NCBI GenBank assembly: GCA_964011795.1
Contig: CAXGQC010000001.1
Span: 1-51,810 of the forward strand
DNA length: 51,810 bases
Direction: 5' to 3'
From: an uncultured bacterium
Lineage (GTDB): Bacteria; Chloroflexota; Dehalococcoidia; UBA2979
The notes beneath the pieces are model-generated. The model did not search any database. It saw nothing but the letters and a program-made list of their open reading frames with translations, and was not told where the DNA came from. The translations under genes and the position numbers were made by a program. This document shows, in pieces, positions 1,372 through 46,760 of the stretch (its first letter is position 1; the number at the start of each line of letters is the position of its first letter).

Positions 1372-2070
1372 CTAACGCCGGTTCCCGCCATTTCCCCTCA
1401 TGCCACTTGTGAAGCTGCCCTCCCGGCAATCAGCGATCGCTTTTGCGACATCAGGATCTTCCCTATCAATATCCTGGCCGGCAAACATGGTTCGCTGAGC
1501 GCTTCGAGTGCCTTGTGAAAAATCAGGGTCGACAACCGGTATATTTTGCTCTCTGAGGCAGGCCGCAAAGCTAAGGATTTGGTCCTGCAGTTCAATTTCA
1601 TCTTCGGTCGAACGGGATTGTCCGAAGCTGGCATCAGCCAACAATCCTCGGCACTTCCCAAGGGCCTCCCGTGTCTTCGGATCCTGCCGGTCGAAGTTTG
1701 GATCTTGGTTGAGTGTAGTAAAGAAGCCTCGCAAATCTACCGACCCATCCTGATTGACCTCAGGATCTGTCACACTGAACCCTTCATCTCGAAGACAAGC
1801 AGCAAATTCAGATGTGATATCTTCGTCTGTTTTATTGGAGACTACTTCTGGAATCGCTGTTTGTGTGGGTGCTGGGATGGTAGTACCTGAAACCAGTGCT
1901 TGAGATACTTGCTGGACAGTGGCAACCTTCGTGGGCACCGGTTCAGCGTCTCCAACCCGGGCAACACCATTCCCTGAATCTGAGTGTCCACCACAGGCCA
2001 ACAATACCAGTAGAAAGCCAGCCACAACTAGCATCACTAAATACTGTCTGTGCAGCTGACTAAAATTCAT
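1372..2070 (-). CDS. secreted lipoprotein with two Cys-pair repeats (FAACLR[DE]...DP...C), function unknown
   Basis: Signal peptide plus lipobox (LLVLLACGG). The ATG at 2070 is preceded by GGAG with an 8-nt spacer, which I prefer over the GTG at 2091. There is an internal duplication: FAACLRDEGFSVTDP...GKC and FAACLREQNIPVVDP...ADC. Confidence 0.6.
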   Translation of the reverse strand: MNFSQLHRQYLVMLVVAGFLLVLLACGGHSDSGNGVARVGDAEPVPTKVATVQQVSQALVSGTTIPAPTQTAIPEVVSNKTDEDITSEFAACLRDEGFSVTDPEVNQDGSVDLRGFFTTLNQDPNFDRQDPKTREALGKCRGLLADASFGQSRSTEDEIELQDQILSFAACLREQNIPVVDPDFSQGTRSAQRTMFAGQDIDREDPDVAKAIADCREGSFTSGMRGNGGNRR

Positions 2071-2118
2071 CAGGAATTCTCCAGTACACAAAAAGTTTAA
2101 ATTGTTTTATTAGCCGCC

Positions 2119-2220
2119 TCAAATTCTTGATAGATCTCCTTCATGAAATCTAACGGCGACGGCTAGGATCGCGGCTCCTATGGCAATCTGGGTGACGATC
2201 GATAACTGTTTCTCATCTAA
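2119..2220 (-). pseudogene. start-less remnant of the TM-anchor of the P-family (see 6306, 9796, 14370)
   Basis: Translates as LDEKQLSIVTQIAIGAAILAVAVRFHEGDLSRI*. By hand count, 11 of 19 residues match the P1 anchor QLAIIAQIVTGIATLAVAM, and the nucleotide similarity is codon-aligned. There is no ATG/GTG/TTG in frame after the upstream TGA. Confidence 0.3.
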
Positions 2221-3815: not shown

Positions 3816-6215
3816 TCAGTCAGACGGTGGGATTTCTCCAATCACCCCGTCTCGACGAAGTGTCTCCAATGTCTCACTATCCATCCCAAGCTCACCACCA
3901 AGTATCTCGTTGTTATGTTGACCAAGGGTCGGTGCAGTGCGGCGATAGGTCACCGGAGTTAATTCCAGGCGAATGGCATTCCCCGGGTAGCGGCGGAGAC
4001 CTACATCTGGATGAGGCAGCTCAGCCCAGAAGTCCCGCTCGGCGAGCTGTCTATCCTCAACGAGGTCACGTGCGTCGGAGACCACCGCTGCTATTATCCC
4101 TGCTGCCTGTAACCGCGCCATCAAAGAGTGGGGGCTGAAAGAGCGGGTGTAGTTAGCGATAAGAGTATCAAGTTCTTCGTGTCGAGCATGCCGGTCCTCG
4201 CGGGTCAGTGCCGTAAGTTCGGAGTCTAAATCTGCAAGCGTCGCGAGCGCACGCCACTCCTCATTCGAAGTTACTGATATAGCAATCCAGCGGTCATCCC
4301 CGGCACACGGGTACAGCCCTTGAGGCGCGTTGAATGGATCTCGATTACCCATTCGTTCGCGATTTCCCCCCCTGACCTGTGCCCCTAGAAGCTCCTCACC
4401 GACAAACGAACCCATAGCCTCGATCATTGCTATTTCTATCGAACGTCCAGCGTGATTTGGGTCAGCCTCCCTGTCTCTAAGTGCGATTAGCAGAGCCGAA
4501 ACTGAGTTCATTCCAGCAACGGGATCTGGCCACGCAATGCCTGATCGATAGGGGCCGGTGTCGAGATAACCCATCATCGATGACAGTCCAGCACCAGCCT
4601 CGATCAGCGGACCCAGTGCAGTTCGCTCACTATCAGGGCCAGTACTGCCATAACCAGGCATCGCCGCATAGATAATCGACGGGTTGAGTATTTTCAGCTG
4701 CTCGAAATCAAAGCCAAGTTGAGGCATGACGCGAGGGCTGAAATTCTCGATCACTATGTCTGCCTCAGCGACCAATTCTGCAAATAGCCCGCGGCCACGT
4801 TCATCGCGAAAGTTAAGAGTGACCGAGCGACGGTTGCGGTGTAGCTTGTTGAAGCCACCAAAGCGGTTCCATGGTCGCTCGCCAATCTCATTTTCCGGGT
4901 AGAGATGACTGACGAAGGCAGCTGAATCTGGCACGTCCCGAGGTCCTCTGTTGAAAATCGCTTCAATCGAAATCACGTCAGCACCGAGGTCACCAAGCAT
5001 CCGGCCAGCCCACGGCCCTGCCCAAACACGGGTGAGGTCCAGAATGCGTATCCCTTCTAAAGGGCCATCTGCCGGCAGTGCCTCGTGTTTTCCAGCGTGC
5101 ACGTCGCTGAAGTCAGACCAACTGATACTTTCATCAGGTGTCGATGGTGGCCGTGGGTCAGGATCACGGTCACTGATCCAGAAGGGACCACGCGGGATCT
5201 GCAGTGGGGGACTACCATTGATTTCACGCCAATAGTCGCGAAATGAGAGCTGAGGGTCATCCAGGAGCTGGAGCATTGTCGGGACCGGTCCAACCGGCGC
5301 AAAAACACTACGACCGATAGCGATGATTTCCTCGGCTGTATGTTCCATCAGCCATGGAATAAATGCTTCATCAAACTCGTCCTTGTGGGCCCCTCGCGCG
5401 TAGTCATCCTTGAAGCGTGGATCTTCTGCTATTTCGGTCAGACCTGCGAGGGTGAGGAAATCCATAAGCTTCACACCAGAGGCAAGGCTGAGCTGTACAT
5501 ACCCATCACTACATGGATATACCCCTACAGGATGCCATGACCCTGGTTGGCGATTGCCTTCGCGCTTGAGGATGTGGGCGCCGTGTGTCCACATCGTCGT
5601 TGTATGTTGATGGAGCGTCGCCGATCCTTCGAAATGTGAAATCTCGACGATCTGCCCCCGCCCGGTGAGATCTTGCACACGTAGTGCCGCCATCGTCCCT
5701 ATAAAACCATGGGTACCAGCTTGGTAAGCCATGTGCAGGCCAGGCCGTCGAATAGGCTCACGTGAGGGTTCTCCGTTCGGGTAGAGTTGTCCACCAATCG
5801 CCTCATCAGTAAATAAATTCGAACGGTAATTAGAGTAGGGACCAGAACTTCCGAAAGGAGAAATACGAGCACTAACCAGTCGCATATTATTCGCAATATC
5901 AACACGAGAGATCAGTGGTTCTGGGGAAGAACTTTCAATCACTGCATCCGCCTCGACCAACAGTGACATCAACCCCGCATGGTCATTCTGATCAACGAAT
6001 ATCGATTGTTTTGAAGTATTGAGATAAGCCCAGGTGGTACCTACTACGTCACCGTTGGGTAGCGTCCATGGTTCGCCCTCGGTACGCAACGGATCACCAT
6101 CAAGTGGCTCTACCTTGATCACTGTCGCCCCATGATCCGCAAACATTTTGGCCGTGTACGCGCCAGCCGCAGAACCAGCAATTTCAACGATACGTAAGTC
6201 CTCAAACTGTTTCAT
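3816..6215 (-). CDS. two-domain family III (CaiB/BaiF) CoA-transferase fusion, 799 aa
   Basis: Two full family III domains. The N-domain has LRIVEIAGSAAGAYTAKMFADHGATVIKVEP...LNTSKQSI. The C-domain starts about aa 386 with IRILDLTRVWAGPWAGRMLGDLGADVISIE...PWNRFGGFNKLHRNRRSVTLN. Confidence 0.9.
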   Translation of the reverse strand: MKQFEDLRIVEIAGSAAGAYTAKMFADHGATVIKVEPLDGDPLRTEGEPWTLPNGDVVGTTWAYLNTSKQSIFVDQNDHAGLMSLLVEADAVIESSSPEPLISRVDIANNMRLVSARISPFGSSGPYSNYRSNLFTDEAIGGQLYPNGEPSREPIRRPGLHMAYQAGTHGFIGTMAALRVQDLTGRGQIVEISHFEGSATLHQHTTTMWTHGAHILKREGNRQPGSWHPVGVYPCSDGYVQLSLASGVKLMDFLTLAGLTEIAEDPRFKDDYARGAHKDEFDEAFIPWLMEHTAEEIIAIGRSVFAPVGPVPTMLQLLDDPQLSFRDYWREINGSPPLQIPRGPFWISDRDPDPRPPSTPDESISWSDFSDVHAGKHEALPADGPLEGIRILDLTRVWAGPWAGRMLGDLGADVISIEAIFNRGPRDVPDSAAFVSHLYPENEIGERPWNRFGGFNKLHRNRRSVTLNFRDERGRGLFAELVAEADIVIENFSPRVMPQLGFDFEQLKILNPSIIYAAMPGYGSTGPDSERTALGPLIEAGAGLSSMMGYLDTGPYRSGIAWPDPVAGMNSVSALLIALRDREADPNHAGRSIEIAMIEAMGSFVGEELLGAQVRGGNRERMGNRDPFNAPQGLYPCAGDDRWIAISVTSNEEWRALATLADLDSELTALTREDRHARHEELDTLIANYTRSFSPHSLMARLQAAGIIAAVVSDARDLVEDRQLAERDFWAELPHPDVGLRRYPGNAIRLELTPVTYRRTAPTLGQHNNEILGGELGMDSETLETLRRDGVIGEIPPSD

Positions 6216-6305
6216 ACATATCGTCCTTGCCCTTACTGTCAGACCAAGAATACTTGACTAAACCAACATGTGGTCTATGTAATCTCTGGACTAGTCGGTT
6301 ACTTA

Positions 6306-6749
6306 CTAGGGTGATTTGGCAGTGTCAATAAACTGAACAAATGAACCCTCATGGAGATTGGCACCGATCTCGGACCAGAATCTCTCTACACCGGGACCAA
6401 CTCCGAAAATATTTTTCACTCTCCGTTGGATATTTGTATAATCATTGCCATTTTCCCAGTGATCCTTGAATTGAGCGAAATATTGCAGCATATATATGTT
6501 GAATCGATGCTGATCAATTTTGTCGAGTTCGCCCGAATCTTCACAACCTAACAAAAAAATATTGGCGAAGTCTCGATTTGTATACATACTCCGATTCATA
6601 TCATCTACTTGAGTACCAATCGTCAGTCGCAAACTCATCACGGAATCCCTGTGCTGTTGCCAGAGCTGACTCGCCAGGAACATTGCTACGGCCAACGTTG
6701 CAATCCCTGTGACAATCTGAGCGATGATCGCTAACTGTTCCCATTCCAT
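6306..6749 (-). CDS. P-family copy 1: N-terminally TM-anchored protein, unknown function
   Basis: N-terminus MEWEQLAIIAQIVTGIATLAVAMFLASQLWQQHRDS. GAGGA SD upstream. Paralogous to 9796..10308 and 14370..14861. Confidence 0.75.
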   Translation of the reverse strand: MEWEQLAIIAQIVTGIATLAVAMFLASQLWQQHRDSVMSLRLTIGTQVDDMNRSMYTNRDFANIFLLGCEDSGELDKIDQHRFNIYMLQYFAQFKDHWENGNDYTNIQRRVKNIFGVGPGVERFWSEIGANLHEGSFVQFIDTAKSP

Positions 6750-6843
6750 AATCTGTCCTCACTTTCATAAAAGACTACTTGACTACTTATGTTATATATG
6801 ACGAGACAATTCAGGCTTATGAAGGAATGAGAGAGGCAACAAT

Positions 6844-7152
6844 ATGATTTTCCATGTGATAGCTGAACATGACCACAGCACCTGTGGCCGTGTCGAAAAT
6901 GGTGTAGTAACTAAAACTTGGGAAGATGTTGCGCCAAATGCTACGGCTTGGGTAGAAGGCAGTGACGACGCGAACGTCCTGGGTGTCTGGGGCTATCCCG
7001 TCCAACATCGTATTTTTGCAATAGTTGAGGCAGACACATTTGAGGCTGTCGAATCACTATTCGATTTTCATCTCGCTAAGGGACCAGTTGAGGTTTTACC
7101 AGTGAGGGATTTGATTCAGAGCCGAAAAGATCTCGGATTATGGGGCCAATAA
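6844..7152 (+). CDS. S-family copy 1: ~100-aa soluble protein with HVIAEHDHSTC motif, unknown function
   Basis: 102 aa, divergent from P1. Paralogue of 10585..10878, with 45 of 58 identical residues over the C-terminal half by hand count. Confidence 0.75.
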   Translation: MIFHVIAEHDHSTCGRVENGVVTKTWEDVAPNATAWVEGSDDANVLGVWGYPVQHRIFAIVEADTFEAVESLFDFHLAKGPVEVLPVRDLIQSRKDLGLWGQ

Positions 7153-7250
7153 GTAGCCGCCAGAAGCTTTGTGTGATTGCAGATCATCTGACCCTGATAC
7201 GGCTGGGGGACTGAATCGTATACTTAGGACATTCAATAATGTCGTGGGTA

Positions 7251-8618
7251 TTACGACCAGTTGTCACCAACCAATTCGATACTTTTTTGCTCTGCCTTCC
7301 TGGAGAACTCCTCAGCAAAATATGAACAGAGACCCGTATATTGCTCTGGATCGAGCAGCTCAGAAATTGCGTTTGTGGTTAATCGTTCTTTTATGTCGGG
7401 CTCTTCTTGTAGTGTCTCTGTAAATGGCCTCCCCTCGTTAACAGATCTTTGCGCCGCTTCATAAACAACGTCGTGAGCCTTTTGCCGGCCCATTTCTCGG
7501 CCCAGTTCGAGCATGATTTTCTCAGAGAGTATTAATCCACCACTGAGTTCAAGATTCTGTCTCATCCGATCAGGGAAAACTTTGAGATCCGAAAATATCT
7601 CAATCAGTGCAGCGGTAATTTGTCCCATTAGTATGCATGTTCTATCGATAGCTGAGTTGATCATCATACTGGTGGTTTTATCAGCCTCGTGCTCAGTTTG
7701 CATCGCTTCCAGCGACATTGGTACGAATGTACGGATTTCTGACGCCCAAGCAACAACGTCCTGGCACAGACGTGGATTGCGCTTCTGAGGCATGGTTGAT
7801 GACCCAACTGCGCCCAGAGGCACAGGTTCTTCAACTTCACCGAACTCCTGTTTCATCATGGTATAGATTTCACGAGACATTTTGCTTGCGGTAGCAGCAA
7901 GCATGGCAAGAATAGTGATGTACTCCGTCAGATGATCGCCGATCACCCTAGACGGCATAGACATCGATCCTAATCCTAACTCCTCGCCAATTAGCCTTTG
8001 AGTCTCAAGACCCTCGAGACCGACCGAAGCCATCGTCCCTGCTCCTCCACCAAGCATCGCCACAAAGACTCGTTCCTCGCTCCCTTGCAGGCGCTCTACA
8101 TGTCGTATTAATTCGTCAATCCACACAGCTACTTTGTAGCCGAAGGTTGCCGGAACAGCATGCTGCCCGTGAGTCCTTCCAGGTAGGGCATAGTCCTTCG
8201 TCTCTTCTGCCAATCTACCGAGCACATGGAGCAGAGTCCCGAGATCCTTCAAAAACCTCTCATGACACTCTTTAACCAGCAGTATCTTGCCTGTCTGCGT
8301 GATGTTTTGAGTGGTGGCACCCCAGTGTATATACCCACCTGCTTCTTCACCGCAGATTCTGTCTAATTCCCAAATCAGCGGGACTAAGGGGTGTCCTGTT
8401 TTATCTAATCCGTCGTAAATATTTTGCAAATTTAGCAATTCAAGCTTTGCTCTTTCCGTTATCACACCAGCAGCCTCAGTCGGAATTATCCCTTGACTTG
8501 CCTGCGCTCGAGCGAGCGCCGCTTCGACGTCCAAATAAGACTGAAACAAATTGGATTCACTAAATAATTCACTCACAGAGTTACTATTACTATCCCCAGA
8601 AGATGTATTTCCTTGCAT
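7251..8618 (-). CDS. fumarate-lyase superfamily enzyme (adenylosuccinate lyase / 3-carboxymuconate cycloisomerase-like)
   Basis: Signature GSSTMPQKRNP is present. 455 aa. AAGGGGA SD before the ATG. Confidence 0.85.
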   Translation of the reverse strand: MQGNTSSGDSNSNSVSELFSESNLFQSYLDVEAALARAQASQGIIPTEAAGVITERAKLELLNLQNIYDGLDKTGHPLVPLIWELDRICGEEAGGYIHWGATTQNITQTGKILLVKECHERFLKDLGTLLHVLGRLAEETKDYALPGRTHGQHAVPATFGYKVAVWIDELIRHVERLQGSEERVFVAMLGGGAGTMASVGLEGLETQRLIGEELGLGSMSMPSRVIGDHLTEYITILAMLAATASKMSREIYTMMKQEFGEVEEPVPLGAVGSSTMPQKRNPRLCQDVVAWASEIRTFVPMSLEAMQTEHEADKTTSMMINSAIDRTCILMGQITAALIEIFSDLKVFPDRMRQNLELSGGLILSEKIMLELGREMGRQKAHDVVYEAAQRSVNEGRPFTETLQEEPDIKERLTTNAISELLDPEQYTGLCSYFAEEFSRKAEQKSIELVGDNWS

Positions 8619-8782: not shown

Positions 8783-9799
8783 CTAAAACTTGATTACCAT
8801 TTGTATCTGATTTGAGGGCTTGATCAATGACTCAAAGGCTTCCTGTATGTCCTTGAGTTCGATCGTATCGGTATCAGACAATAAAGGTTCCAATACAAAT
8901 TTTTTAGAGGCAATCAGGTCTACCGCGACTTTAAAATCATATGGTTCACTGGCGAAGGTAGTGTTCAGCTGGATTTCTTTACCTGCCCAATCTACCGGCA
9001 ATAGTGGGACATCCTCCCACGCAAGAGCCACCAACATTACGTTGCCTTTTCTTCTCACCATATCCAGAGCATCATGCAGAGTAGGTTTCGCTGCGGCACA
9101 TTCATACACCACATGAGGACCGGCACCATCTGTTAGTTCAATGATGGCTTTTACCGGGTCTTGGGAAGTTGGATCTACCACTGCGTCAGCACCCAGCTCC
9201 AAAGCCACAGATCGTCTGGCTTCGGACGGTTCGGAGACAATAACTTTGGTCGCGCCAGCCGCTTTCGCAGCCTGCAAGCATAAAAGCCCTATCGGACCCG
9301 CCCCCAATACTGCAACGGTATCTCCTAGTTTCTGATTCGATAGTCTGACCGCCCTCGTCACTATGGCACATGGCTCCGCCAAAGCACCCTCCAAATTTGA
9401 TACCTGATCAGGCAGTCTGAGTGGTTCCCATTCCTTAGCAACCGTGTATTCCGCATATCCCCGAGTTCGAGTATTGGTAATGCCCTCAAGACGATAGTTG
9501 TACTGGTCTTGCCTTCTTAGAGGGGATTCCTTACCTGGAGGTGGAGTCCCACCAAGGCCAATCACTCGGTCGCCTACCTTAAACCGGGTTACATCTGAAC
9601 CGACTTTGGAAATTTCTCCGGCGAATTCATGTCCCAACACCGTGTCGGGCGGAGCTATGTCATACAGATATACGTGCACATCTGTGCCACATATCGCACT
9701 GTGCGAAATCTTGATCTGCACTTCATCTGATTGCGGCTCGGGAGTAGGAATTTCTTCCACAACTAAATTCTGTTTACTTTTATACACTGCAGCTCTCAT
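8783..9799 (-). CDS. zinc-dependent alcohol dehydrogenase (MDR family)
   Basis: Motifs CGTDVH, GHEFAGEI and the Rossmann loop GAGPIGL. 338 aa. Confidence 0.9.
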   Translation of the reverse strand: MRAAVYKSKQNLVVEEIPTPEPQSDEVQIKISHSAICGTDVHVYLYDIAPPDTVLGHEFAGEISKVGSDVTRFKVGDRVIGLGGTPPPGKESPLRRQDQYNYRLEGITNTRTRGYAEYTVAKEWEPLRLPDQVSNLEGALAEPCAIVTRAVRLSNQKLGDTVAVLGAGPIGLLCLQAAKAAGATKVIVSEPSEARRSVALELGADAVVDPTSQDPVKAIIELTDGAGPHVVYECAAAKPTLHDALDMVRRKGNVMLVALAWEDVPLLPVDWAGKEIQLNTTFASEPYDFKVAVDLIASKKFVLEPLLSDTDTIELKDIQEAFESLIKPSNQIQMVIKF

Positions 9800-10308
9800 T
9801 TTTCCTCCTCATTAACTTCTACTCCGTCGAATAAGTCGGGCAGCACTCCCTTTTCACCTTCGCTGGAAATACGATCGATCAACGCATCGATTTTATTCTG
9901 AAACTCTTGTGGAAATGCGTTCCGTGCCTCGGAAAAGAATTCGCGGGTCCCCTTCTGCGAAAATAATCCATAGTAGAGCTCGTCCATGTCATATCCTATG
10001 GAATCCTCGTACTCTCCCATGTTCATCCAAGAGGTCATCATCCCTGTAGCGAGCCAAAAAAATTGTTGTTTCTCTTTTTGATCCAAAGACTGATAATCCA
10101 CTTGACCCCGTATAAAAAGATCACTTAGTTCACGATCTTTTCCCATAGCACTACGATACGTATCGAGTCTGCTCTGAATTCGCATAGTTATATCTTTTTG
10201 AGAATCTCTATGCTGTAAACGCAACTGACTTGCAAGAAACACTGCGACTCCAAGGGTAGCGATACCGGTTATGATTTGCGCTGTGATCGCAACCTGCTCC
10301 CAGTCCAT
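9796..10308 (-). CDS. P-family copy 2: TM-anchored protein, unknown function
   Basis: N-terminus MDWEQVAITAQIITGIATLGVAVFLASQLRLQHRDS. Its stop overlaps the ADH start codon (4-nt overlap). Confidence 0.8.
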   Translation of the reverse strand: MDWEQVAITAQIITGIATLGVAVFLASQLRLQHRDSQKDITMRIQSRLDTYRSAMGKDRELSDLFIRGQVDYQSLDQKEKQQFFWLATGMMTSWMNMGEYEDSIGYDMDELYYGLFSQKGTREFFSEARNAFPQEFQNKIDALIDRISSEGEKGVLPDLFDGVEVNEEEK

Positions 10309-10584: not shown

Positions 10585-10878
10585 CTAATTCGCTCCCCAA
10601 AAACCTTGATCTTTCCGAAGTTGAACTAAGTCCTTCACTGGAAGTACTTCCACAGGGCCCATACCAAGATGAAAATCAAACAGTGATTCCACATCCTCGA
10701 ATGTATCGGCCTCAACCACGGAGAAAACACGATGCGACACTGGATATCCCCATACTCCGAGAATGTTCACCTTGTCATTTCCCTCAACCCAGGTCATCCC
10801 AGACTTTGCAAAACCTGGCCCTTCCTTCACCCTGTTACAGGTACTGTGGTCATGTTGTGCAATTACATGAAAAATCAT
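10585..10878 (-). CDS. S-family copy 2: ~100-aa protein with HVIAQHDHSTC motif
   Basis: The ATG at 10878 has a perfect AAGGAGG SD, and the product aligns with S1 from residue 1 (MIFHVIA). The longer 10905 start is not supported. Confidence 0.8.
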   Translation of the reverse strand: MIFHVIAQHDHSTCNRVKEGPGFAKSGMTWVEGNDKVNILGVWGYPVSHRVFSVVEADTFEDVESLFDFHLGMGPVEVLPVKDLVQLRKDQGFWGAN

Positions 10879-11050
10879 GTATACCTCCTTCATCATCCCT
10901 GTCACGCGCGGAATCTATGGTCTACACCACCAACACCCCGATGCTCAAACTTGACAAATTTTGTCAGGTTTACAAGACTATATCGGAAAACCCAAACTTG
11001 AACGAAAATCACGTGGGTTTGGAAAAAGCACAATTTGCAAAGGAGACGCA

Positions 11051-11458
11051 ATGTTAGGTGAAAAAGTAGGTAATATATCTGGTCCAACAGCGGTAAAGGC
11101 CCTTCCGGCTACAAACGGGAATCCTACGTTTGAAACGACCGCAGCCGGGCTCAGCGGCACACTCGCTGGCGTCGAAGTACAAAGCTTTGCTACATATTCG
11201 GCAGAGATGAAACCAAATGGCAAACTTTACGGTGAATGTCCTAATGCAGGCGTAGTGATGACAGCAGATGGAGTTGCGACCTTTCGAGCGACCGGGGTGG
11301 GACAATTCATGGAAGATGGTAGTGCCGTCTTTAAGGGCGTTGTCTACTTTGAAGCGTCTGCTCCCTCTCTGGCTTCTATAGATGGAATTGCCGTGGTGTA
11401 TGACTGGGTAGTCGATCCACAGGGGAACGCTACTTGGGATCTATGGGAGTGGAAATAA
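11051..11458 (+). CDS. 135-aa Gly/Val/Thr-rich (beta-rich) protein, unknown function
   Basis: AAGGAGA SD 5 nt before the ATG at 11051. A strong hairpin follows the stop. Confidence 0.65.
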   Translation: MLGEKVGNISGPTAVKALPATNGNPTFETTAAGLSGTLAGVEVQSFATYSAEMKPNGKLYGECPNAGVVMTADGVATFRATGVGQFMEDGSAVFKGVVYFEASAPSLASIDGIAVVYDWVVDPQGNATWDLWEWK

Positions 11459-11471
11459 CCCATATTTATCA

Positions 11472-11513
11472 TTGGTGAGAGATCGCCATCAAATGATGGC
11501 GATCTCTCACCAA
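11472..11513 (+). terminator. perfect 19-bp stem hairpin (TTGGTGAGAGATCGCCATC-AAAT-GATGGCGATCTCTCACCAA)
   Basis: Read directly from the sequence, 14 nt after the stop of 11051..11458. The downstream T-tract is weak. Confidence 0.5.
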
Positions 11514-11628
11514 GCAGTGCTCTTTATCTGAATACGCTCAATTTACTCTATTCAAAATATGACTCACTTACTCCCACGATCTATAATTGACTTAGAAGCG
11601 CACGCAGCAAAGACCGTAATGAGACGAT

Positions 11629-12021
11629 ATGGCTATTACACCAGAACAAGCACTACGGGAATCTGTTGAGGCTATCGGGACGAGCAAGAAGAAAAAATAT
11701 AGAGATACTATTCATCCTCCTGTACATCAGATTATTGTCTCTGACTTCGAGGATCGACGATTTGATGAATCAAATATACCGGAGTACATGTCTGATATTT
11801 GGGAGGAATATTTGCCGGATTGGGCCGGCAGCACTTGCACCTTGGACTCTTTCGAAATAATTATTCAGGACTCGTTGAAAGTCGCATATCTAATTAAAGC
11901 AAGTCGCTTATTTCCTGATGGGTCGCTAATGCAAACATTCAACGCGATTTTCACCGTTGGTAATAAAGACGGGGATTGGAGACTCATCAGTCGAAATCCC
12001 TTCAACATCACCAAGGCGTAA
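11629..12021 (+). CDS. NTF2/SnoaL-like small protein (tentative)
   Basis: 130 aa. Size and C-terminal pattern (GDWRLISR) resemble the cone-like alpha+beta NTF2 fold. Weak call. Confidence 0.5.
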   Translation: MAITPEQALRESVEAIGTSKKKKYRDTIHPPVHQIIVSDFEDRRFDESNIPEYMSDIWEEYLPDWAGSTCTLDSFEIIIQDSLKVAYLIKASRLFPDGSLMQTFNAIFTVGNKDGDWRLISRNPFNITKA

Positions 12022-13210
12022 ACCTATTTTCCCAAAACTAACAGGGTTACGGCTTCTCTCACTGTGGTGGATATTTCGATGGGCATCTCTTGGTGAAGCG
12101 ATATGGTCTGTTTATCTAATAGAACAGCGCGGATTGAGCTTGGGAACGGTACTTGCATTCGAGGCGGCTTGGTGGATATTCGTAATCTCACTTGAAGTAC
12201 CAACTGGGTTAATTACTGACCGCTGGGGACGAAAGAAATCATTAGTTACTGGATCAATCCTTGGAACATTGGGTTTCCTCGTTTTTGGTTTCTCAGCGAG
12301 TCCGTTTCTTCTTTTGTTTGCGTATCTGATTTGGGGTTTAGGGGACACTTTCATATCTGGTACTGATTCAGCATTCTTGTTTGAAAAACTGAAAAACAGA
12401 GGCGAAGAACACCGATATGCGCAGTACGAAGGTTGGCTGAATGCCGGTGCACTAGTAGTTATTGCAACCACAACCGCCCTTGGACCTCTACTACTGATTT
12501 GGACATCACTCGCAGTACCCTTCATCCTCACATCAATTTTTGGAGTGCTGCTAATCGCCGTGTCGCTATCGCTGAAAGAACCCGAAGATCTGCAGGATGG
12601 CACCACTGACGAATCTTATTCCAAAGGTTTTAGATCAGCTATTGGAATCATAACCACACCAGCGGTCGCGGGAATTGTATGCCTCAAAGCCATTCCGGAA
12701 ATGTCCTTGGCGATACTGCTACTGACGCTTCCAAAAACACTCGCAAATTATGGCCTCAGCACCTACGAATTCGGATGGTGGATGGCGCTAATTTTCCTAT
12801 TAATGGCGGGGACCTCAATATTCGCTGGTCGTGCCACAAAACTTTTCTCTATCTGGCAGTGGTTAGGACTGGCAGGGATCGCCTCAGCAGCTGCATTTAT
12901 CTTGTCCACCGGCTCCTCGCTTTGGTTATTTCCTCTATGTGTTTTGCCTGCCCTATTCCTACCGGTTACAGAACCGCATGTCCATCAATTCTTGGCCGAC
13001 AGAACGGACGTAGCCAATCGAGCCACAACACTCTCAGTCGCCAACGCTACTATGTCGATTGTTATTGCCACATCTATATTCGGCGGAGCCTGGATTATGG
13101 ACGAGTTCGGATTCCTCACCGCTATGAGAATTTTCGCCTGTGCCACAGCCGTATTGTTAGTCATTGGGTTTGCATTTTGGTCCCTTGACCGACAAAACTA
13201 CGCGCGATGA
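11957..13210 (+). CDS. MFS transporter
   Basis: About 12 predicted TM segments and the loop 2-3 motif GLITDRWGRKK. The start is uncertain: the only ATG overlaps the upstream gene by 65 nt. Confidence 0.8.
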   Translation: MVIKTGIGDSSVEIPSTSPRRKPIFPKLTGLRLLSLWWIFRWASLGEAIWSVYLIEQRGLSLGTVLAFEAAWWIFVISLEVPTGLITDRWGRKKSLVTGSILGTLGFLVFGFSASPFLLLFAYLIWGLGDTFISGTDSAFLFEKLKNRGEEHRYAQYEGWLNAGALVVIATTTALGPLLLIWTSLAVPFILTSIFGVLLIAVSLSLKEPEDLQDGTTDESYSKGFRSAIGIITTPAVAGIVCLKAIPEMSLAILLLTLPKTLANYGLSTYEFGWWMALIFLLMAGTSIFAGRATKLFSIWQWLGLAGIASAAAFILSTGSSLWLFPLCVLPALFLPVTEPHVHQFLADRTDVANRATTLSVANATMSIVIATSIFGGAWIMDEFGFLTAMRIFACATAVLLVIGFAFWSLDRQNYAR

Positions 13211-13279: not shown

Positions 13280-14311
13280 ATGCTTGAGAGCGTACAGTTA
13301 GGGACAAGCGGACTAAGTGTCTCGCAACTATGTCTCGGAACAATGAATTTTGGAATTCCCGGACGAGGACATCAGGGTGATTGGACATTAACGCTCGACG
13401 AAGCTCGGCCAATCTTCAAGGCTGCACTCGATCACGGTCTATATTATTTTGACTGTGCGGATGTCTACGGGCTCGGCGCTTCCGAAGAAGTAGTTGGAGC
13501 CTTACTCAATGAACTTCTTCCCCGAGATGAATATGTGCTCGCTACAAAAATAGCCCAACCAATGGGAAGGGGAGCAAATCAAGGCGGACTTTCCCGTAAG
13601 CATGTTATGGAAGGTGTGGATGCCTGTTTAAAAAGACTTGGACATGACTATATAGATCATTTAGTGATCCATCGCCACCCACATGGAATACGGGGCCAGC
13701 ATGCCGAAGTGCCCATCGAGGAGACTATGGAAGCGCTGAATGACGTGGTGAAGGCTGGAAAAGTCCTGTATCTTGGTGCATCTTCCATGTTTGCGTGGCA
13801 ATTTGCTGAACTCCAACTCACTGCTGAACTGCACGGATGGCAAAAGTTTGTCTCCATGCAGAATCATTACAATCTGGTTTATCGAGAAGAAGAGCGGGAA
13901 ATGAACCCGTATTGTGAAAAATCAGGCGTTGCGCTCACTCCTTGGTCACCACTGGCCCGAGGTATCCTCGCGGGCGCTTACAAAGGCGGATTTGAGTCGG
14001 GAAGTACTAACCGATCTCAGGGACAGGACAGAGCCCGTACTGAGGGTCTGTATCACGGCGATCATGTGTTTCCTATTGCTGAACGAGTGGGGGAAATAGC
14101 GAGCAAGTACGAAAAGACTTCAGCCCAGATTGCGCTCGCATGGTTAGCAAATAAGTCAGAGATCACAGCTCCAATTGTTGGGGTGTCGAAGTTAAAACAA
14201 CTCGATGAACTAGTCGACTCAATGAGCATCAACCTCGACCAAGAAGATATTGACTACCTAGAGGAACTCTACAATCCAGTTGAAAACTTACTTTCATTTG
14301 GCTATTCATAG
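13280..14311 (+). CDS. aldo/keto reductase
   Basis: N-terminus LGTSGLSVSQLCLGTMNFG...FDCADVYG, 343 aa. GGAG SD upstream. Confidence 0.9.
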   Translation: MLESVQLGTSGLSVSQLCLGTMNFGIPGRGHQGDWTLTLDEARPIFKAALDHGLYYFDCADVYGLGASEEVVGALLNELLPRDEYVLATKIAQPMGRGANQGGLSRKHVMEGVDACLKRLGHDYIDHLVIHRHPHGIRGQHAEVPIEETMEALNDVVKAGKVLYLGASSMFAWQFAELQLTAELHGWQKFVSMQNHYNLVYREEEREMNPYCEKSGVALTPWSPLARGILAGAYKGGFESGSTNRSQGQDRARTEGLYHGDHVFPIAERVGEIASKYEKTSAQIALAWLANKSEITAPIVGVSKLKQLDELVDSMSINLDQEDIDYLEELYNPVENLLSFGYS

Positions 14312-14369: not shown

Positions 14370-14861
14370 TTATATCTCGGATAGTGAGAGATCCACTTCT
14401 CTGCCGGCAAACTTTTGAAACACTGAATCACCTATCGCACGCAAAGCATCATCATAGAGAAAAGTCCGGCCTCGTAGCTCATAGTATTGGCGCATTCCTC
14501 GTCGATCAAAAAGCAATCCAAATTGTATTTTCACCCGATCTGTACTGGCGCCATCTCGTCCAAGACGCCAGAGGGATCCTGACATTAGAAACATTTGCTG
14601 GTAGATCACGTCCACACGGAACTTATCTGATGGTGAGAGACCAACGAAATCTTCATTACCTCTCACCATCGCTTCTGCCAGCGAAGCATCTGCAACGGTG
14701 GCTAGCAGCAAATTCTCCTGTCGGTTCTCAGAGGCAAATGTCAATTCCCGTTGCGCATCCTGGTGCTGCAGCCTCAACTGACTCGCCAAAAATATCGCGA
14801 CTGCGAGAGTTGCAAACCCACTGGCAATTTGAGCAACTATCGCTATTTGATCCCAGTCCAT
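14370..14861 (-). CDS. P-family copy 3: TM-anchored protein, unknown function
   Basis: The start at 14861 gives MDWDQIAIVAQIASGFATLAVAIFLASQLRLQHQDA, matching the paralogue starts. Confidence 0.75.
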   Translation of the reverse strand: MDWDQIAIVAQIASGFATLAVAIFLASQLRLQHQDAQRELTFASENRQENLLLATVADASLAEAMVRGNEDFVGLSPSDKFRVDVIYQQMFLMSGSLWRLGRDGASTDRVKIQFGLLFDRRGMRQYYELRGRTFLYDDALRAIGDSVFQKFAGREVDLSLSEI

Positions 14862-14999
14862 TAATTTCCCTTTCAGTGCAGAAACAGGATACCTGCAGCC
14901 CAATAATCATGCGTCAAACAACACTTGCGCATTAAGTGTTTTCGCGTAGAGTCGATCATGGAGAAGCCAGACCACGGAAAAATTATTATGGAGGTGGAA

Positions 15000-15497
15000 A
15001 TGCTTCTCAAAGCACGCGTTTTTATAGTCTCTTTACTGTTGGTAGCCCTAATGGCCTGTGGCTCAGAATCAACAGAACCTGCAAAATCAAGCTCTTCGAC
15101 TAGTTCAAGTGAAACTACCGCGGTGTCTGCCGCACAGCCAGCTTGCGATGCTGAACTAACAGTCGAATTGGCAAATGACGGACCGTACGCTATTACCGCA
15201 CCCGAGAGCTTCCAAGGGGATTGTGAGATGACTCTGGCTATCAAAAATTATGCCGTCTTAGTCCATAATTTCAGAATCCTCAAGACCAGTCTTGCACTCG
15301 ATGCTTTGCCAATCGACGAAGCAACTGCGATGGTCGATATCGAAGCTGCTGGTGAGATTCTTTATTCCTCTGGTGATTTAGAACAAGAAGCCACGGAGAC
15401 TGGCACGGTGAGTCTCGATTCTGGAGAGTATGTCCTGTTTTGTAACATCGCGGGGCACTATCAGCTTGGTATGGTGAAGAGCTTCACTGTCAATTAG
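15000..15497 (+). CDS. type-1 copper (cupredoxin) lipoprotein, auracyanin-like
   Basis: GGAGGTGG SD before the ATG at 15000. Lipobox LVALMACGS and a Ser/Thr-rich linker. Copper ligand pattern H (LVHNF) ... C-x4-H-x4-M (FCNIAGHYQLGM). Confidence 0.8.
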   Translation: MLLKARVFIVSLLLVALMACGSESTEPAKSSSSTSSSETTAVSAAQPACDAELTVELANDGPYAITAPESFQGDCEMTLAIKNYAVLVHNFRILKTSLALDALPIDEATAMVDIEAAGEILYSSGDLEQEATETGTVSLDSGEYVLFCNIAGHYQLGMVKSFTVN

Positions 15498-46685: not shown

Positions 46686-46760
46686 TGGTGGGCCCGGTGG
46701 GGATCGAACCCACGACCAATGGGTTAAAAGCCCACTGCTCTACCACTGAGCTACAGGCCC
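46686..46760 (-). tRNA. tRNA-Lys: tRNA-Lys (anticodon UUU), CCA encoded
   Basis: Hand-folded cloverleaf: GGGCCTG/TA/GCTC-AGTGGTA-GAGC/A/GTGGG-CTTTTAA-CCCAT/TGGTC/GTGGG-TTCGATC-CCCAC/CGGGCCC/A/CCA. 75 nt. Confidence 0.95.

What the first reader, a model, noticed from the sequence alone, without database searches (positions are those of the whole stretch)
6306..7152. Unnamed two-gene module, copy 1: membrane-anchored 'P' protein with a hyper-conserved TM anchor, divergent from a ~100-aa 'S' protein carrying H-x4-H-x-H-x2-C
P1 (6306..6749, minus) and S1 (6844..7152, plus) share a 94-nt divergent intergenic region.

P proteins occur three times in this window (also 9796..10308 and 14370..14861). 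The conservation pattern is inverted relative to normal. The N-terminal TM anchor M[DE]W[ED]Q.AI.AQI..G.ATL.VA.FLASQL..QH.D is nearly invariant, with 27 of the first 36 residues identical between P1 and P2 by hand count. The ~110-aa soluble part keeps only scattered motifs ([FM][ILV].G..D...L......F and G..[ER].[FY][WFY].E). That argues the helix itself is a specific interaction, sorting or processing determinant rather than a passive anchor.

S proteins (two copies) conserve MIFHVIA[EQ]HDHSTC, a further His (GYPV.HR[IV]F) and ADTFE.VESLFDFHL..GPVEVLPV. That combination could be a metal or redox site on a small alpha+beta fold.

I cannot assign either protein to a characterised family. From memory, P loosely recalls DUF6082-type architecture and S recalls DUF3303/GYD/Dabb-like folds. 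Neither recollection is verified.

P1 sits directly upstream of the 799-aa CoA-transferase fusion on the same strand.
Basis: partly seen in the sequence, partly recalled or inferred. Interest (0 to 1): 0.75.

Follow-up and report, generated by a model that had tools for sequence, protein, structure and literature searches.

The report
Two uncharacterised neighbours, not a module
Two small genes of unknown function in a marine SAR202 bacterium are real and sit together more often than chance predicts, but they are loosely linked neighbours from two known unnamed protein families, not a fixed two-gene system.

Summary
P1, S1, their 94-nt divergent spacer, P2, P3 and S2 are all where stated. The P anchor really is the best-conserved part: 24-28 of the first 36 residues are identical, against 30-36% overall.

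S belongs to Pfam DUF3303. P is a SAR202-expanded clade, with at least 8 copies per MAG, of a large superfamily whose nearest Pfam entry is DUF6082. P1-P3 themselves fall below that model's threshold.

Anchor conservation reflects protein-level selection, not gene conversion. Synonymous sites are as diverged in the anchor as elsewhere. Variability follows helical periodicity (p=0.0007), leaving a polar Q/T/G/A face conserved. Flanking charges predict an N-out/C-in topology.

The "two-gene module" is only partly supported. P lies within 1.3 kb of S in 4 of about 10 S locus types, in four different arrangements. Most P loci have no S. Sister strains carry a 157-nt frameshifting deletion in P1 while S1 stays intact. 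A P C-terminal domain was swapped next to an unchanged S.

My best reading is that P is a membrane-tethered cytoplasmic helical bundle that associates through its transmembrane helix. S is probably a small His/Cys protein with a ferredoxin-like fold. The two are facultative neighbours, and neither function is known.

The parts
6306..6749 (-). P1: 147-aa single-pass membrane protein of the DUF6082-related, SAR202-expanded family
   Evidence: ORF. The family HMM scores it 191 bits. AF2 pLDDT is 86.8, showing one continuous helix over residues 3-57 followed by a helical bundle. There is no Pfam hit at or near threshold.
6642..6749 (-). Coding region for P1 residues 1-36: the MEWEQ N-tail, the transmembrane helix (about residues 6-28) and the juxtamembrane QLxxQHRDS motif
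   Evidence: T18, A22, L25, Q28 and Q32 are invariant. Q11, T14, G15, A17, L19, V21, L29, H33 and D35 are at least 90% conserved in 50 sequences. Helical periodicity of variability gives p=0.0007, net charge is -1.7 before the helix, and about 2.8 K/R follow it.
6306..6641 (-). P1 cytoplasmic helical-bundle domain, the variable and swappable part of the family, plus the stop codon
   Evidence: Mean pairwise identity is 26% across paralogues, but 61-76% among P1 orthologues. Foldseek finds no PDB or viral structural match. Sister strains delete 157 nt inside this part.
6750..6843 (.). 94-nt divergent spacer between P1 and S1. It contains the tandem 8-mer GACTACTT x2 at 6773..6788
   Evidence: Sequence. 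The consensus scan finds no sigma-70-like promoter inside the spacer. In contig L036 the matching position holds a 1.3-kb insert carrying a DUF805 gene and another P gene.
6844..7152 (+). S1: 102-aa cytoplasmic DUF3303-family protein with the H4/H9/H11/C14/H55 cluster
   Evidence: Pfam DUF3303 scores 18.9 bits against a cutoff of 21.2. All 13 relatives hit the model, best E=3.5e-11. Invariant residues are listed. The AF2 model is poor (pLDDT 59) and shows a beta/alpha layout.
9796..10308 (-). P2: second P paralogue. Its stop overlaps the start of the Zn-dependent alcohol dehydrogenase gene (8783..9799) by 4 nt (ATGA)
10585..10878 (-). S2: second DUF3303 paralogue, 276 nt upstream of P2 on the same strand
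   Evidence: Pfam DUF3303 scores 22.1 bits, above the cutoff of 21.2. It is 69% identical to S1.
14370..14861 (-). P3: third P paralogue, convergent with the aldo/keto reductase gene 13280..14311. No S gene is adjacent
   Evidence: It gives a weak DUF6082 match of 13.6 bits, E=0.05, with residues 9-128 aligned to profile positions 11-120 of 163.
3816..6215 (-). 799-aa double CoA-transferase family III protein downstream of P1 (context only, not conserved with P1)
   Evidence: Pfam CoA_transf_3 at 3.1e-151 with two domains. P1 orthologues elsewhere precede ApbA or stand alone.
7251..8618 (-). Lyase_1/ADSL_C family lyase, convergent with S1 (context only)
   Evidence: Pfam. It is 3.4 kb from the S orthologue in L044.

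Best explanation
P1 and S1 are two separately transcribed genes that are facultative neighbours. They are not an obligate two-gene system.

P1 belongs to a multi-copy family of bitopic membrane proteins, with at least 8 genes per SAR202 MAG. The family is a clade of a very large superfamily with a conserved M-[DN]-W-E N-terminus, remotely related to Pfam DUF6082.

I infer the following about P. A short acidic N-tail is placed outside the cell. One transmembrane helix spans the membrane. A helical bundle of about 110 residues sits in the cytoplasm on a helical stalk. The transmembrane helix is conserved because about three quarters of its surface, including Q11, T14, G15, T18, A22, L25, Q28, L29 and Q32, makes specific helix-helix contacts in the membrane. 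Those contacts could be with copies of itself, with its paralogues, or with one common membrane partner. Only a narrow stripe (positions 9, 13, 16, 20, 23, 27, 31) faces lipid. The cytoplasmic domain is the specificity module. It defines orthologous subfamilies and can be exchanged by recombination behind the conserved 5' part of the gene.

S1 is a DUF3303 protein, most likely with a small ferredoxin-like fold. Its invariant His4/His9/Thr13-Cys14/His55 cluster is probably a metal-binding or catalytic site.

The ORFs, family links, selection pattern, periodicity, co-occurrence counts, deletion allele and domain swap are shown by tool results. The topology, the oligomerisation or docking role of the helix, and the metal or catalytic role of the S cluster are inferences.
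For: Family placement:
- All S relatives hit DUF3303.
- The P profile finds 1880 representative proteins. Of 109 representatives taken from the 150 best hits (all E<=5.3e-10 to the P profile), 9 hit DUF6082, best 2.5e-8. Sub-threshold hits cover the full length.

Anchor under protein-level selection:
- Third codon positions match at only 12-19 of 36 sites.
- The same-codon fraction at identical residues is 0.36 in the anchor and 0.37 in the soluble part.
- Variability periodicity peaks at 100-105 degrees, with permutation p=0.0007. The N-tail carries net charge -1.7, and about 2.8 K/R follow the helix.
- The AF2 model has pLDDT 86.8, with one helix over residues 3-57 followed by a bundle.

P is multi-copy and dispersed:
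- It occurs in tandem arrays and in unrelated contexts such as nifU, panBC, ftsZ-recA and varied enzyme genes.

The P-S link is loose:
- Four arrangements were seen: divergent at 94 nt, S then P at 276 nt, P then S at 100 nt, and S then P at 1.1-1.25 kb.
- Six S clades have no P within 4-10 kb.
- P1 orthologues occur without S.
- P1 carries a 157-nt frameshifting deletion in sister strains (protein found on 22 contigs read; deletion checked in one) with S1 intact.
- A P C-domain was replaced between contigs that are 95-99% identical, while S was unchanged.

The association is still non-random. My rough count is about 5 P genes in about 33 kb within 1.5 kb of S, against 3-4 in about 135 kb further out. 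Remote DUF3303 paralogues also sit near P genes in L008, L012, L025 and L049.
Against: - No experiment or complex prediction supports helix-helix association. AlphaFold-Multimer was not available.
- The topology rests only on the positive-inside rule.
- The homologue sets were partly gathered with anchor-derived words or patterns. This inflates apparent anchor conservation, although the word-free HMMER search shows the same trend.
- The repeated juxtaposition of P and DUF3303 genes from different subclades is more than I can explain by chance. It could reflect a real functional link.
- The S model has low confidence (pLDDT 59), so fold-based statements about S are weak.
Confidence: 0.55

Rival explanations
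1. P and S form a genuine functional pair. Cytoplasmic S binds the part common to all P proteins, the juxtamembrane stalk QLRxQHRDS. P thereby recruits S to the membrane or regulates it, and any P paralogue can serve.
For: - P lies within 1.3 kb of S in four independent arrangements that involve at least four P subclades.
- Remote DUF3303 paralogues (22-30% identity) also neighbour P genes in L008, L012, L025 and L049.
- The P1...S pair is retained between the window and L036 although both outer flanks differ.
- S stays put while the P C-domain is swapped. This fits S recognising the constant part of P.
Against: - Six S clades have no P within 4-10 kb, and most P loci have no S.
- Order, strand and spacing are not conserved.
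- P1 is frameshifted in many sister-strain contigs with S1 intact.
- P copies (at least 8 per MAG) far outnumber the S copies seen nearby.
- There is no co-variation between the two proteins.
Confidence: 0.2
2. P proteins are membrane-active effectors or sensors. The conserved polar face of the transmembrane helix (Q11, T14, T18, Q28, Q32) lines an oligomeric pore. The variable cytoplasmic domain is a trigger or sensor under diversifying pressure, as in stress, abortive-infection or competition systems.
For: - The transmembrane face is polar, helically periodic and conserved.
- The family is multi-copy, with tandem arrays and cassette-like C-domain exchange.
- The P1 gene is 94.5% identical at nucleotide level between lineages whose neighbouring S genes are only 75% identical, which suggests recent gene-sized exchange.
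- A loss-of-function P1 allele is common in sister strains.
Against: - PADLOC and PHROGs give no hit, and no relatives occur on viral contigs.
- P genes sit among housekeeping and catabolic genes, not in recognisable defence islands.
- P2 is translationally coupled to an alcohol dehydrogenase.
- Orthologous C-domains are under purifying, not diversifying, selection (dN 0.10-0.15 with saturated dS).
Confidence: 0.1
3. The anchor is conserved because of DNA-level concerted evolution (gene conversion among paralogues, or a conserved 5' nucleic-acid element), not because the helix has a specific protein function.
For: - In a "core" set of paralogues from related contigs, a leader of about 100 nt and the anchor-coding DNA are near-identical. 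The 27-mer GGTTACACTCTGTCGGGAATGGAAAGG is exact in 8 loci.
- In that set the same-codon fraction is 0.55 in the anchor against 0.31 in the soluble part.
- Recombination breakpoints fall at the end of the anchor-coding segment.
Against: - For the three window copies, and for 190 non-core pairs, same-codon use is no higher in the anchor than elsewhere (0.36 against 0.37).
- Third positions are near random.
- The canonical leader is absent from the window.
- The same anchor pattern (M[DN]WE...YLAxQ[IL]R) persists in very distant superfamily members.
Confidence: 0.07
4. The N-terminal segment is a cleaved signal or sorting signal, either Sec/SPase I at A20-V21-A22 or a pilin-like class III signal, and the C-domain is exported.
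For: The hydrophobic N-terminus contains an AxA-like motif, ATLAVA. A conserved N-terminal helix with a variable C-domain superficially recalls pilins.
Against: - The n-region is acidic (MDWEQ, net -1.7) and has no K/R. Positive charges follow the helix instead.
- Conservation continues unbroken through and beyond the putative cleavage site (FLASQLRxQHRDS).
- There is no leader peptide or G/A-F/M-xxx-E prepilin site, because the protein starts directly at the hydrophobic segment (sequence).
- AF2 models one continuous helix over residues 3-57.
Confidence: 0.03

Closest known systems
Pfam DUF6082 (PF19560), an uncharacterised family that I recall as mostly actinobacterial
   Same: Both have an N-terminal transmembrane helix followed by a helical domain of about 120 aa, in proteins of about 150-180 aa. 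P3 aligns to profile positions 11-120 of 163. Nine of 109 superfamily representatives found with the P profile hit it, best 2.5e-8, and sub-threshold hits cover nearly the full length.
   Different: P1 and P2 give no hit. P3 scores 13.6 bits against a cutoff of 26.7. None of the 80 closer homologues carries any precomputed Pfam domain. The SAR202 clade has its own near-invariant anchor, MDWEQLTIIAQIATGxATLAVAxFLASQLRxQHRDS. Neither family has a known function.
Pfam DUF3303 (PF11746), an uncharacterised small-protein family
   Same: S2 passes the gathering score. All 13 S relatives match, best E=3.5e-11. Size is the same, at about 92-105 aa in a single domain.
   Different: S1 alone is just below threshold (18.9 against 21.2 bits). 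This clade carries an invariant H4/H9/T13-C14/H55 cluster. I could not check its generality in DUF3303 outside SAR202.
SCO4226 of Streptomyces coelicolor (PDB 4OI3/4OI6; DUF4242), a low-affinity nickel-binding ferredoxin-like dimer (PMC4186839)
   Same: It is the top Foldseek hit for the S1 model (E=0.047, probability 0.90). It is also the only non-trivial PDB sequence hit (E=0.19-0.43). Both are small His-rich alpha+beta proteins of about 82-102 aa.
   Different: None of these scores is significant, and the S1 model is poor (pLDDT 59). The nickel ligands of SCO4226 (His76, Asp43, Ser46; PMC4186839) could not be mapped onto S. SCO4226 has no Cys-containing N-terminal motif. This is a fold-level lead only.
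Muconolactone isomerase, ClcF and other dimeric alpha+beta-barrel small enzymes
   Same: These are lower-ranked Foldseek hits (probability 0.2-0.6). They are enzymes of about 90-100 aa that need no cofactor. S1 lies next to a Lyase_1/ADSL_C gene, the fold family that, from my own knowledge, includes carboxymuconate cycloisomerases. CoA-transferase genes are also nearby.
   Different: There is no sequence match, and the synteny with the lyase is not conserved. The idea is speculative.
Type IV pilins and polymorphic toxin systems (analogy of architecture only)
   Same: Both have a conserved hydrophobic N-terminal helix, or constant N-terminal part, joined to variable C-domains. Both have multiple paralogues, and C-terminal parts are exchanged by recombination.
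   Different: P has no prepilin leader or cleavage motif, and its C-domain is predicted to be cytoplasmic and all-helical. The downstream gene S does not co-vary with the swapped domain, unlike a toxin-immunity pair.

Membership tests
Pfam DUF3303 (PF11746) | Whole-protein HMM score at or above the gathering cutoff of 21.2 bits | tested here: met
   S2 scores 22.1 bits. S1 scores 18.9 bits, just below. All 13 aligned relatives match, best E=3.5e-11.
Pfam DUF3303 (PF11746) | Single-domain protein of about 90-105 aa covering most of the 92-position profile | tested here: met
   S2 residues 2-86 align to profile positions 3-84 of 92.
Pfam DUF3303 (PF11746) | Alpha+beta ferredoxin-like fold | tested here: inconclusive
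   The AF2 model shows a beta-beta-beta-alpha-beta-alpha layout but has pLDDT 59.4. Foldseek hits to ferredoxin-like proteins all have E>=0.047.
Pfam DUF6082 (PF19560) | Whole-protein HMM score at or above the gathering cutoff of 26.7 bits | tested here: not met
   P3 scores 13.6 bits (E=0.05). P1 and P2 give no hit at E<=1.
Pfam DUF6082 (PF19560) | Homology through intermediate sequences | tested here: met
   The P profile finds 1880 representatives. Nine of 109 of these hit DUF6082, best 2.5e-8. Others hit below threshold over nearly the full length, for example residues 8-170 against profile positions 3-158 of 163.
Pfam DUF6082 (PF19560) | N-terminal transmembrane helix plus a helical domain, total about 150-200 aa | tested here: met
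   AF2 shows a helix over residues 3-57 plus a bundle. P proteins are 147-170 aa.
SCO4226 / DUF4242 nickel-binding proteins | Significant sequence or structure similarity, and conservation of the Ni-1 ligands His76, Asp43 and Ser46 | tested here: inconclusive
   Sequence E=0.19-0.43. Foldseek E=0.047 with a low-confidence query. No Pfam DUF4242 hit was listed at E<=1. Ligand equivalence was not established.
Conserved two-gene operon or module (P+S) | Adjacency, order and orientation conserved across genomes that carry either gene | tested here: not met
   Four different arrangements occur. Six S clades and most P loci lack the partner.
Conserved two-gene operon or module (P+S) | Both genes retained together (joint loss or joint retention) | tested here: not met
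   P1 carries a 157-nt frameshifting deletion in sister strains with S1 intact.
Type IV pilin-like (class III signal peptide) proteins | Short basic leader, G/A cleavage site, and Glu at position +5 of the mature protein | tested here: not met
   The protein begins MDWEQ directly at the hydrophobic segment, with no leader and no basic residue before the helix.
Sec-type cleavable signal peptide | Positively charged n-region, and conservation that drops after the cleavage site | tested here: not met
   The n-region has net charge -1.7, and K/R follow the helix. Residues 23-36 are as conserved as the helix itself. No dedicated predictor was available.
Polymorphic toxin / immunity cassette | Variable C-terminal domain that co-varies with the downstream gene | tested here: not met
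   The C-domain was swapped between L036 and L037 while the downstream S and 8.4 kb of flank stayed 99% identical.
Known anti-phage defence or phage protein families | Match to PADLOC or PHROGs models, or presence on viral contigs | tested here: not met
   PADLOC gives no hit. PHROGs give only E>0.1. No relatives occur in IMG/VR.

The most novel reading that the evidence does not exclude
The P paralogues of a SAR202 cell (at least 8) assemble through their near-identical polar transmembrane helices into one mixed membrane platform. That platform displays a set of different cytoplasmic helical domains. The cell changes the set by cassette-like recombination between a conserved 5' module (leader plus anchor) and the gene's 3' end. 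DUF3303 proteins such as S1, with their His/Cys site, are soluble clients that dock on the constant stalk. This would be a new kind of modular membrane scaffold in one of the most abundant deep-ocean bacterial groups.
Probability: 0.12. Interest if true: 0.7.

Novelty: new variant of a known kind. Interest (0 to 1): 0.4.

Why it matters
SAR202 bacteria are among the most abundant cells in the dark ocean. They are known for large paralogue expansions of catabolic enzymes. This work adds an expanded non-enzymatic family: P has at least 8 copies per MAG and belongs to a superfamily with 1880 representative clusters that current Pfam thresholds do not capture.

The selection signature of P is unusual and points to a specific, testable intramembrane interaction. 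There is also direct evidence that its cytoplasmic domain is exchanged as a unit. If the helix proves to be an assembly determinant, it would give a handle on how these cells organise proteins at the membrane.

For annotation, the practical result is modest. S1 and S2 should be labelled DUF3303-family. P1-P3 should be labelled as DUF6082-like membrane proteins. They should not be annotated as a two-gene system.

Tried and rejected
- Gene conversion as the cause of anchor conservation is rejected for the window copies. Third-position identity is 12-19 of 36, and the same-codon fraction is 0.36 against 0.37. It does contribute in a subset of related loci.
- A genome-specific anchor, meaning co-evolution within each genome, is rejected. 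In MAG CAJXBM the P1 orthologue has a variant anchor while the other paralogues keep the canonical one.
- PDB sequence searches with P and S profiles found nothing significant.
- Foldseek of the confident P1 model against PDB and BFVD gave no match with E<1.
- PADLOC, PHROGs and NCBIfam gave nothing.
- Viral contig scans for P and S gave nothing.
- Rfam on the whole window found only a tRNA.
- The promoter and terminator scan of 6150..7300 found nothing above the shuffle expectation and nothing in the spacer.
- Literature searches for DUF6082, DUF3303 and SAR202 paralogous membrane proteins returned nothing relevant.
- A search with a broader superfamily HMM for a cryptic P-like partner next to the S genes that lack P found none.
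- A conserved downstream partner of P1 was not found. The CoA-transferase is not conserved there: ApbA follows in L036, and P1 is monocistronic in L009.
Full report
**1. Observation**

- P1 is 6306..6749(-), 147 aa.
- S1 is 6844..7152(+), 102 aa.
- The divergent spacer is 94 nt (6750..6843).
- P2 is 9796..10308(-), 170 aa.
- P3 is 14370..14861(-), 163 aa.
- S2 is 10585..10878(-).

tblastn and HMM scans of the whole 51.8-kb window find three P and two S genes and no more. There is also one 23-residue anchor-like remnant at 2152..2220(-) that runs into a stop codon.

In the first 36 residues, P1/P2 share 28, P1/P3 share 24 and P2/P3 share 26. Whole-protein identity is 30-36%. P1 ends 90 nt upstream of a 799-aa protein with two CoA-transferase III domains.

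**2. Origin and context**

The P1 protein matches at 100% identity a gene on a contig of the MAG "Dehalococcoidia bacterium UBA2979". All relatives found in the genome collection come from SAR202 or Dehalococcoidia MAGs.

The surroundings are typical SAR202 catabolic genes. They include enoyl-CoA hydratase, CoA-transferase, a Lyase_1/ADSL_C lyase, a Zn-dependent alcohol dehydrogenase, an MFS transporter, an aldo/keto reductase, a cupredoxin-like protein, an SRPBCC protein and a luciferase-like monooxygenase.

**3. What S is**

S2 passes the Pfam DUF3303 gathering score (22.1 against 21.2 bits). S1 is just below it at 18.9 bits. All 13 aligned relatives match DUF3303, including copies only 22-30% identical. 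The best E-value is 3.5e-11, and one relative also touches the GYD domain.

Across this divergent set the invariant residues are M1, H4, H9, T13, C14, H55, G80, P86 and V87. H11 and H76 are conserved only in the close clade. S1 orthologues show dN of 0.09-0.31 with dS of 0.76 to saturated.

The AF2 model is poor (pLDDT 59) but has a beta/alpha layout. Its best PDB neighbour is SCO4226, a ferredoxin-like, low-affinity nickel-binding dimer (Foldseek E=0.047, probability 0.90; PMC4186839). The same protein is the only non-trivial PDB sequence hit (E=0.19-0.43). Muconolactone-isomerase-type and other alpha+beta-barrel proteins follow at lower rank.

None of these scores is significant. S is best described as a DUF3303 member, probably ferredoxin-like, with an invariant His/His/Cys/His cluster that looks like a metal or catalytic site. 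That last point is an inference.

**4. What P is**

P1 and P2 have no Pfam hit. P3 has a weak DUF6082 match of 13.6 bits, E=0.05, with residues 9-128 aligned to profile positions 11-120. A word-seeded profile search found 80 homologues, none with a precomputed Pfam domain.

An exhaustive HMMER search of 1.84 billion representative proteins found 1880 at E<=1e-3 and 109 at E<=1e-10. Most are 150-180 aa and match end to end. I took 109 representatives from the 150 best hits, and 9 of them hit DUF6082, best 2.5e-8. Others hit below threshold over nearly the whole profile.

The distant members share the motif M-N-W-E-A-[IL]-G-A-I-G-E...[YF]-L-A-x-Q-[IL]-R-Q-N. The conserved N-terminal anchor is therefore a hallmark of the whole superfamily, and the SAR202 clade has its own sharper version.

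AF2 gives a confident model (pLDDT 86.8). It shows one continuous helix over residues 3-57, covering the transmembrane segment and a stalk, followed by a bundle of five to six short helices. Foldseek finds nothing comparable in PDB or BFVD. PADLOC, PHROGs and NCBIfam are silent. No relatives occur on viral contigs.

**5. Why the anchor is conserved**

In 50 family members, mean pairwise identity is 67% for residues 1-36 and 26% for the rest. T18, A22, L25, Q28 and Q32 are invariant. Q11, T14, G15, A17, L19, V21, L29, H33 and D35 are at least 90% conserved.

This is not DNA-level homogenisation in the window copies.
- Third codon positions match at only 12-19 of 36 sites.
- At identical residues, the same codon is used no more often in the anchor than in the soluble part. 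P1-P3 give 8/26, 11/22 and 10/24 in the anchor, against 9/18, 9/16 and 8/17 in the soluble part. Across 190 non-core pairs the fractions are 0.36 and 0.37.

Variability along residues 6-33 has alpha-helical periodicity, peaking at 100-105 degrees with permutation p=0.0007. A narrow variable stripe covers positions 9, 13, 16, 20, 23, 27 and 31. The opposite face is conserved and carries the polar and small residues.

The N-tail is acidic (net -1.7), and about 2.8 Lys/Arg follow the helix. By the positive-inside rule this predicts an N-out/C-in topology with a cytoplasmic C-domain. It also argues against a Sec or pilin-type signal.

I infer that the helix makes specific protein contacts in the membrane, either self or paralogue oligomerisation or docking to a common partner.

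Two caveats apply. Part of the homologue sampling was seeded with anchor words or patterns. Among P1 orthologues the anchor actually evolves faster (dN 0.35-0.39) than the soluble domain (dN 0.10-0.15). So the inverted conservation is a between-paralogue property. C-domains define orthologous subfamilies, and the anchor is shared across them. The anchor is not genome-specific.

**6. Is P+S a module?**

I scanned 28 P-anchored loci from MAGs and 38 S-anchored metagenome loci, plus contigs found by exact protein look-up. I used HMMs for both families.

S locus types with a P gene within 1.3 kb:
- S1 and P1 divergent, 94 nt apart (this window and close relatives).
- S2 followed by P2 on the same strand, 276 nt apart.
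- P followed by S on the same strand, 100 nt apart, in an ftsZ...recA housekeeping context (L035-39, L054, L077, L080).
- S followed by P3-like after two intervening genes, 1.1-1.25 kb apart (L029, L046, L049).

S types with no P in 4-10 kb of flank:
- L043-45, L052 and L053
- L055, L056 and L073
- L057-59
- L062-64
- L065-67 and L076
- L068-71

A broader superfamily HMM finds no cryptic P there either. Most P loci have no S. These include P1 orthologues at 70% identity with 10-kb flanks (L009, L010). P genes are dispersed next to unrelated genes and often form tandem arrays.

Three further observations separate the two genes.
- In sister strains, P1 carries a 157-nt frameshifting deletion between AGATTC microhomologies, while S1 is intact at 95% identity. 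The truncated protein was found on 22 contigs read, and the deletion itself was checked in locus L001.
- Between two contigs that are 95-99% identical on both sides, the P gene 100 nt upstream of S has had only its C-domain coding part replaced by another subfamily. S is unchanged.
- Between the window and L036, the P1 gene is 94.5% identical in DNA but S only 75%. A 1.3-kb insert (a DUF805 gene plus another P gene) separates them in L036.

The proximity is nevertheless not random. My rough count gives about 5 P genes in about 33 kb within 1.5 kb of S, against 3-4 in about 135 kb further out. Remote DUF3303 paralogues also lie near P genes in L008, L012, L025 and L049.

I conclude that P and S are facultative neighbours within a rearranging gene neighbourhood. 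A real but non-obligate functional link is still possible, and I put that at about 0.2.

**7. Comparison with known systems, and novelty**

S is a member of DUF3303. P is an outlying clade related to DUF6082 that fails that model's threshold. Neither family has a known function, and no paper in the searchable library mentions either.

Pilins, polymorphic toxins and defence systems share single architectural features but each fails its defining tests (see the membership table).

The finding is a new variant of known but uncharacterised kinds. Its most interesting content is the selection signature of the helix and the modular exchange of the C-domain, not the proposed two-gene module.

**8. Verdict**

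Interest is 0.4. The most novel reading still open is a mixed-paralogue membrane scaffold with exchangeable cytoplasmic domains and DUF3303 clients. I give it a probability of about 0.12 and an interest of 0.7 if true.

Noticed in passing
L036:7374-7901 compared with L037:1336-1812 (both 100 nt upstream of the S homologue): The two contigs are 99% identical downstream and 95% identical upstream, including the first ~120 nt of the P gene. Yet they carry different P C-terminal domains at the same position. The L037 version is 80% identical to another P paralogue elsewhere in L036 (4507..5049). The breakpoints fall at the end of the anchor-coding segment and at the stop codon, so this is a cassette-like domain swap.
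   Followed up: yes
window 6305..6759 compared with L036:6207-6661: The P1 gene alone is 94.5% identical in DNA between two lineages whose adjacent S genes are only 75% identical and whose outer flanks are unrelated. This suggests recent gene-sized exchange. In L036 a 1.3-kb insert (a DUF805 gene plus another P gene) separates the P1 orthologue from S.
   Followed up: partly
L001:10001-10294, with the same truncated gene in L002-L006 and L013. Corresponds to about window 6380..6536: Sister strains carry a 157-nt deletion inside P1, flanked by an AGATTC direct repeat. It truncates the protein to 97 aa with a frameshifted tail. This truncated protein was found on 22 contigs read. The adjacent S1 orthologue is intact.
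   Followed up: yes
Upstream of P genes in L031, L035, L036, L037, L054, L077, L079 and L080, for example L036:6652-6760(-): A conserved leader of about 100 nt precedes many P paralogues from different subfamilies. Its consensus is ...GGCGTTGCyACCCCTAGTCCCTGTGTTGGGGGACTGCTCTTATACAAAACATCTGGGAGAAATGGTTACACTCTGTCGGGAATGGAAAGGACAGGGT-ATG, and the 27-nt core is exact in 8 loci. The anchor-coding DNA in this group shows excess synonymous identity (0.55 against 0.31). The canonical form is absent from the window. It could be a promoter, a 5'UTR or a recombination anchor.
   Followed up: partly
Immediately 3' of the stop codon of several P genes, for example L077 after 1442, L035 after 7901 and L030 after 3741: A conserved near-palindromic tail, TAG-GGCCTACCGTAGGCGAATCTAGG, follows the stop codon. 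Its core is GCCTAC-C-GTAGGC. In tandem arrays it runs straight into the conserved leader of the next P gene. It is not present after P1-P3 in the window.
   Followed up: no
window 9796..9799: The P2 stop codon overlaps the start codon of the Zn-dependent alcohol dehydrogenase gene (8783..9799) in an ATGA motif. This implies co-transcription and translational coupling. The same overlap occurs in close relatives (L001 6439..6951 and 6948..7964).
   Followed up: partly
window 6773..6788: A perfect tandem 8-mer, GACTACTT GACTACTT, lies in the P1-S1 spacer. It is not conserved in sister-strain locus L001, so it is probably not an operator.
   Followed up: no
window 2152..2220 (-): A 23-residue stretch resembles a P anchor (LDEKQLSIVTQIAIGAAILAVAV, tblastn E=0.027 against P3). 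It runs into a stop codon and lies upstream of a lipoprotein-like ORF (1372..2091). It may be a decayed P remnant or a chance match.
   Followed up: no
window 10961..13210, and L044:10001-12243: S-family genes recur next to a gene of about 130 aa with no Pfam hit (window 11629..12021) followed by an MFS transporter. The arrangement is S, then the 130-aa gene, then MFS in L044. In the window S2 is divergent from a 165-aa gene, the 130-aa gene and MFS. The aldo/keto reductase, the lyase and P3 also reshuffle within the same neighbourhood across MAGs.
   Followed up: partly
window 14925..15497 (+): A 190-aa secreted or lipoprotein-like protein gives a weak sulfocyanin (SoxE) match (E=0.003). It carries a C-x4-H-x4-M motif, CNIAGHYQLGM, typical of type-1 copper sites. 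Its orthologue lies between S and the P3-like gene in L029 and L046.
   Followed up: no
L034:9892-10468: The P2-like gene in MAG CAJXBM appears frameshifted within the anchor-coding region, with the ORF restarting at MAVAVFLASQL. An intact version (P0007) exists in metagenomes. This is either a pseudogene or an assembly error.
   Followed up: no
window 46689..46760 (-): A tRNA gene is the only Rfam match in the window at gathering thresholds.
   Followed up: no
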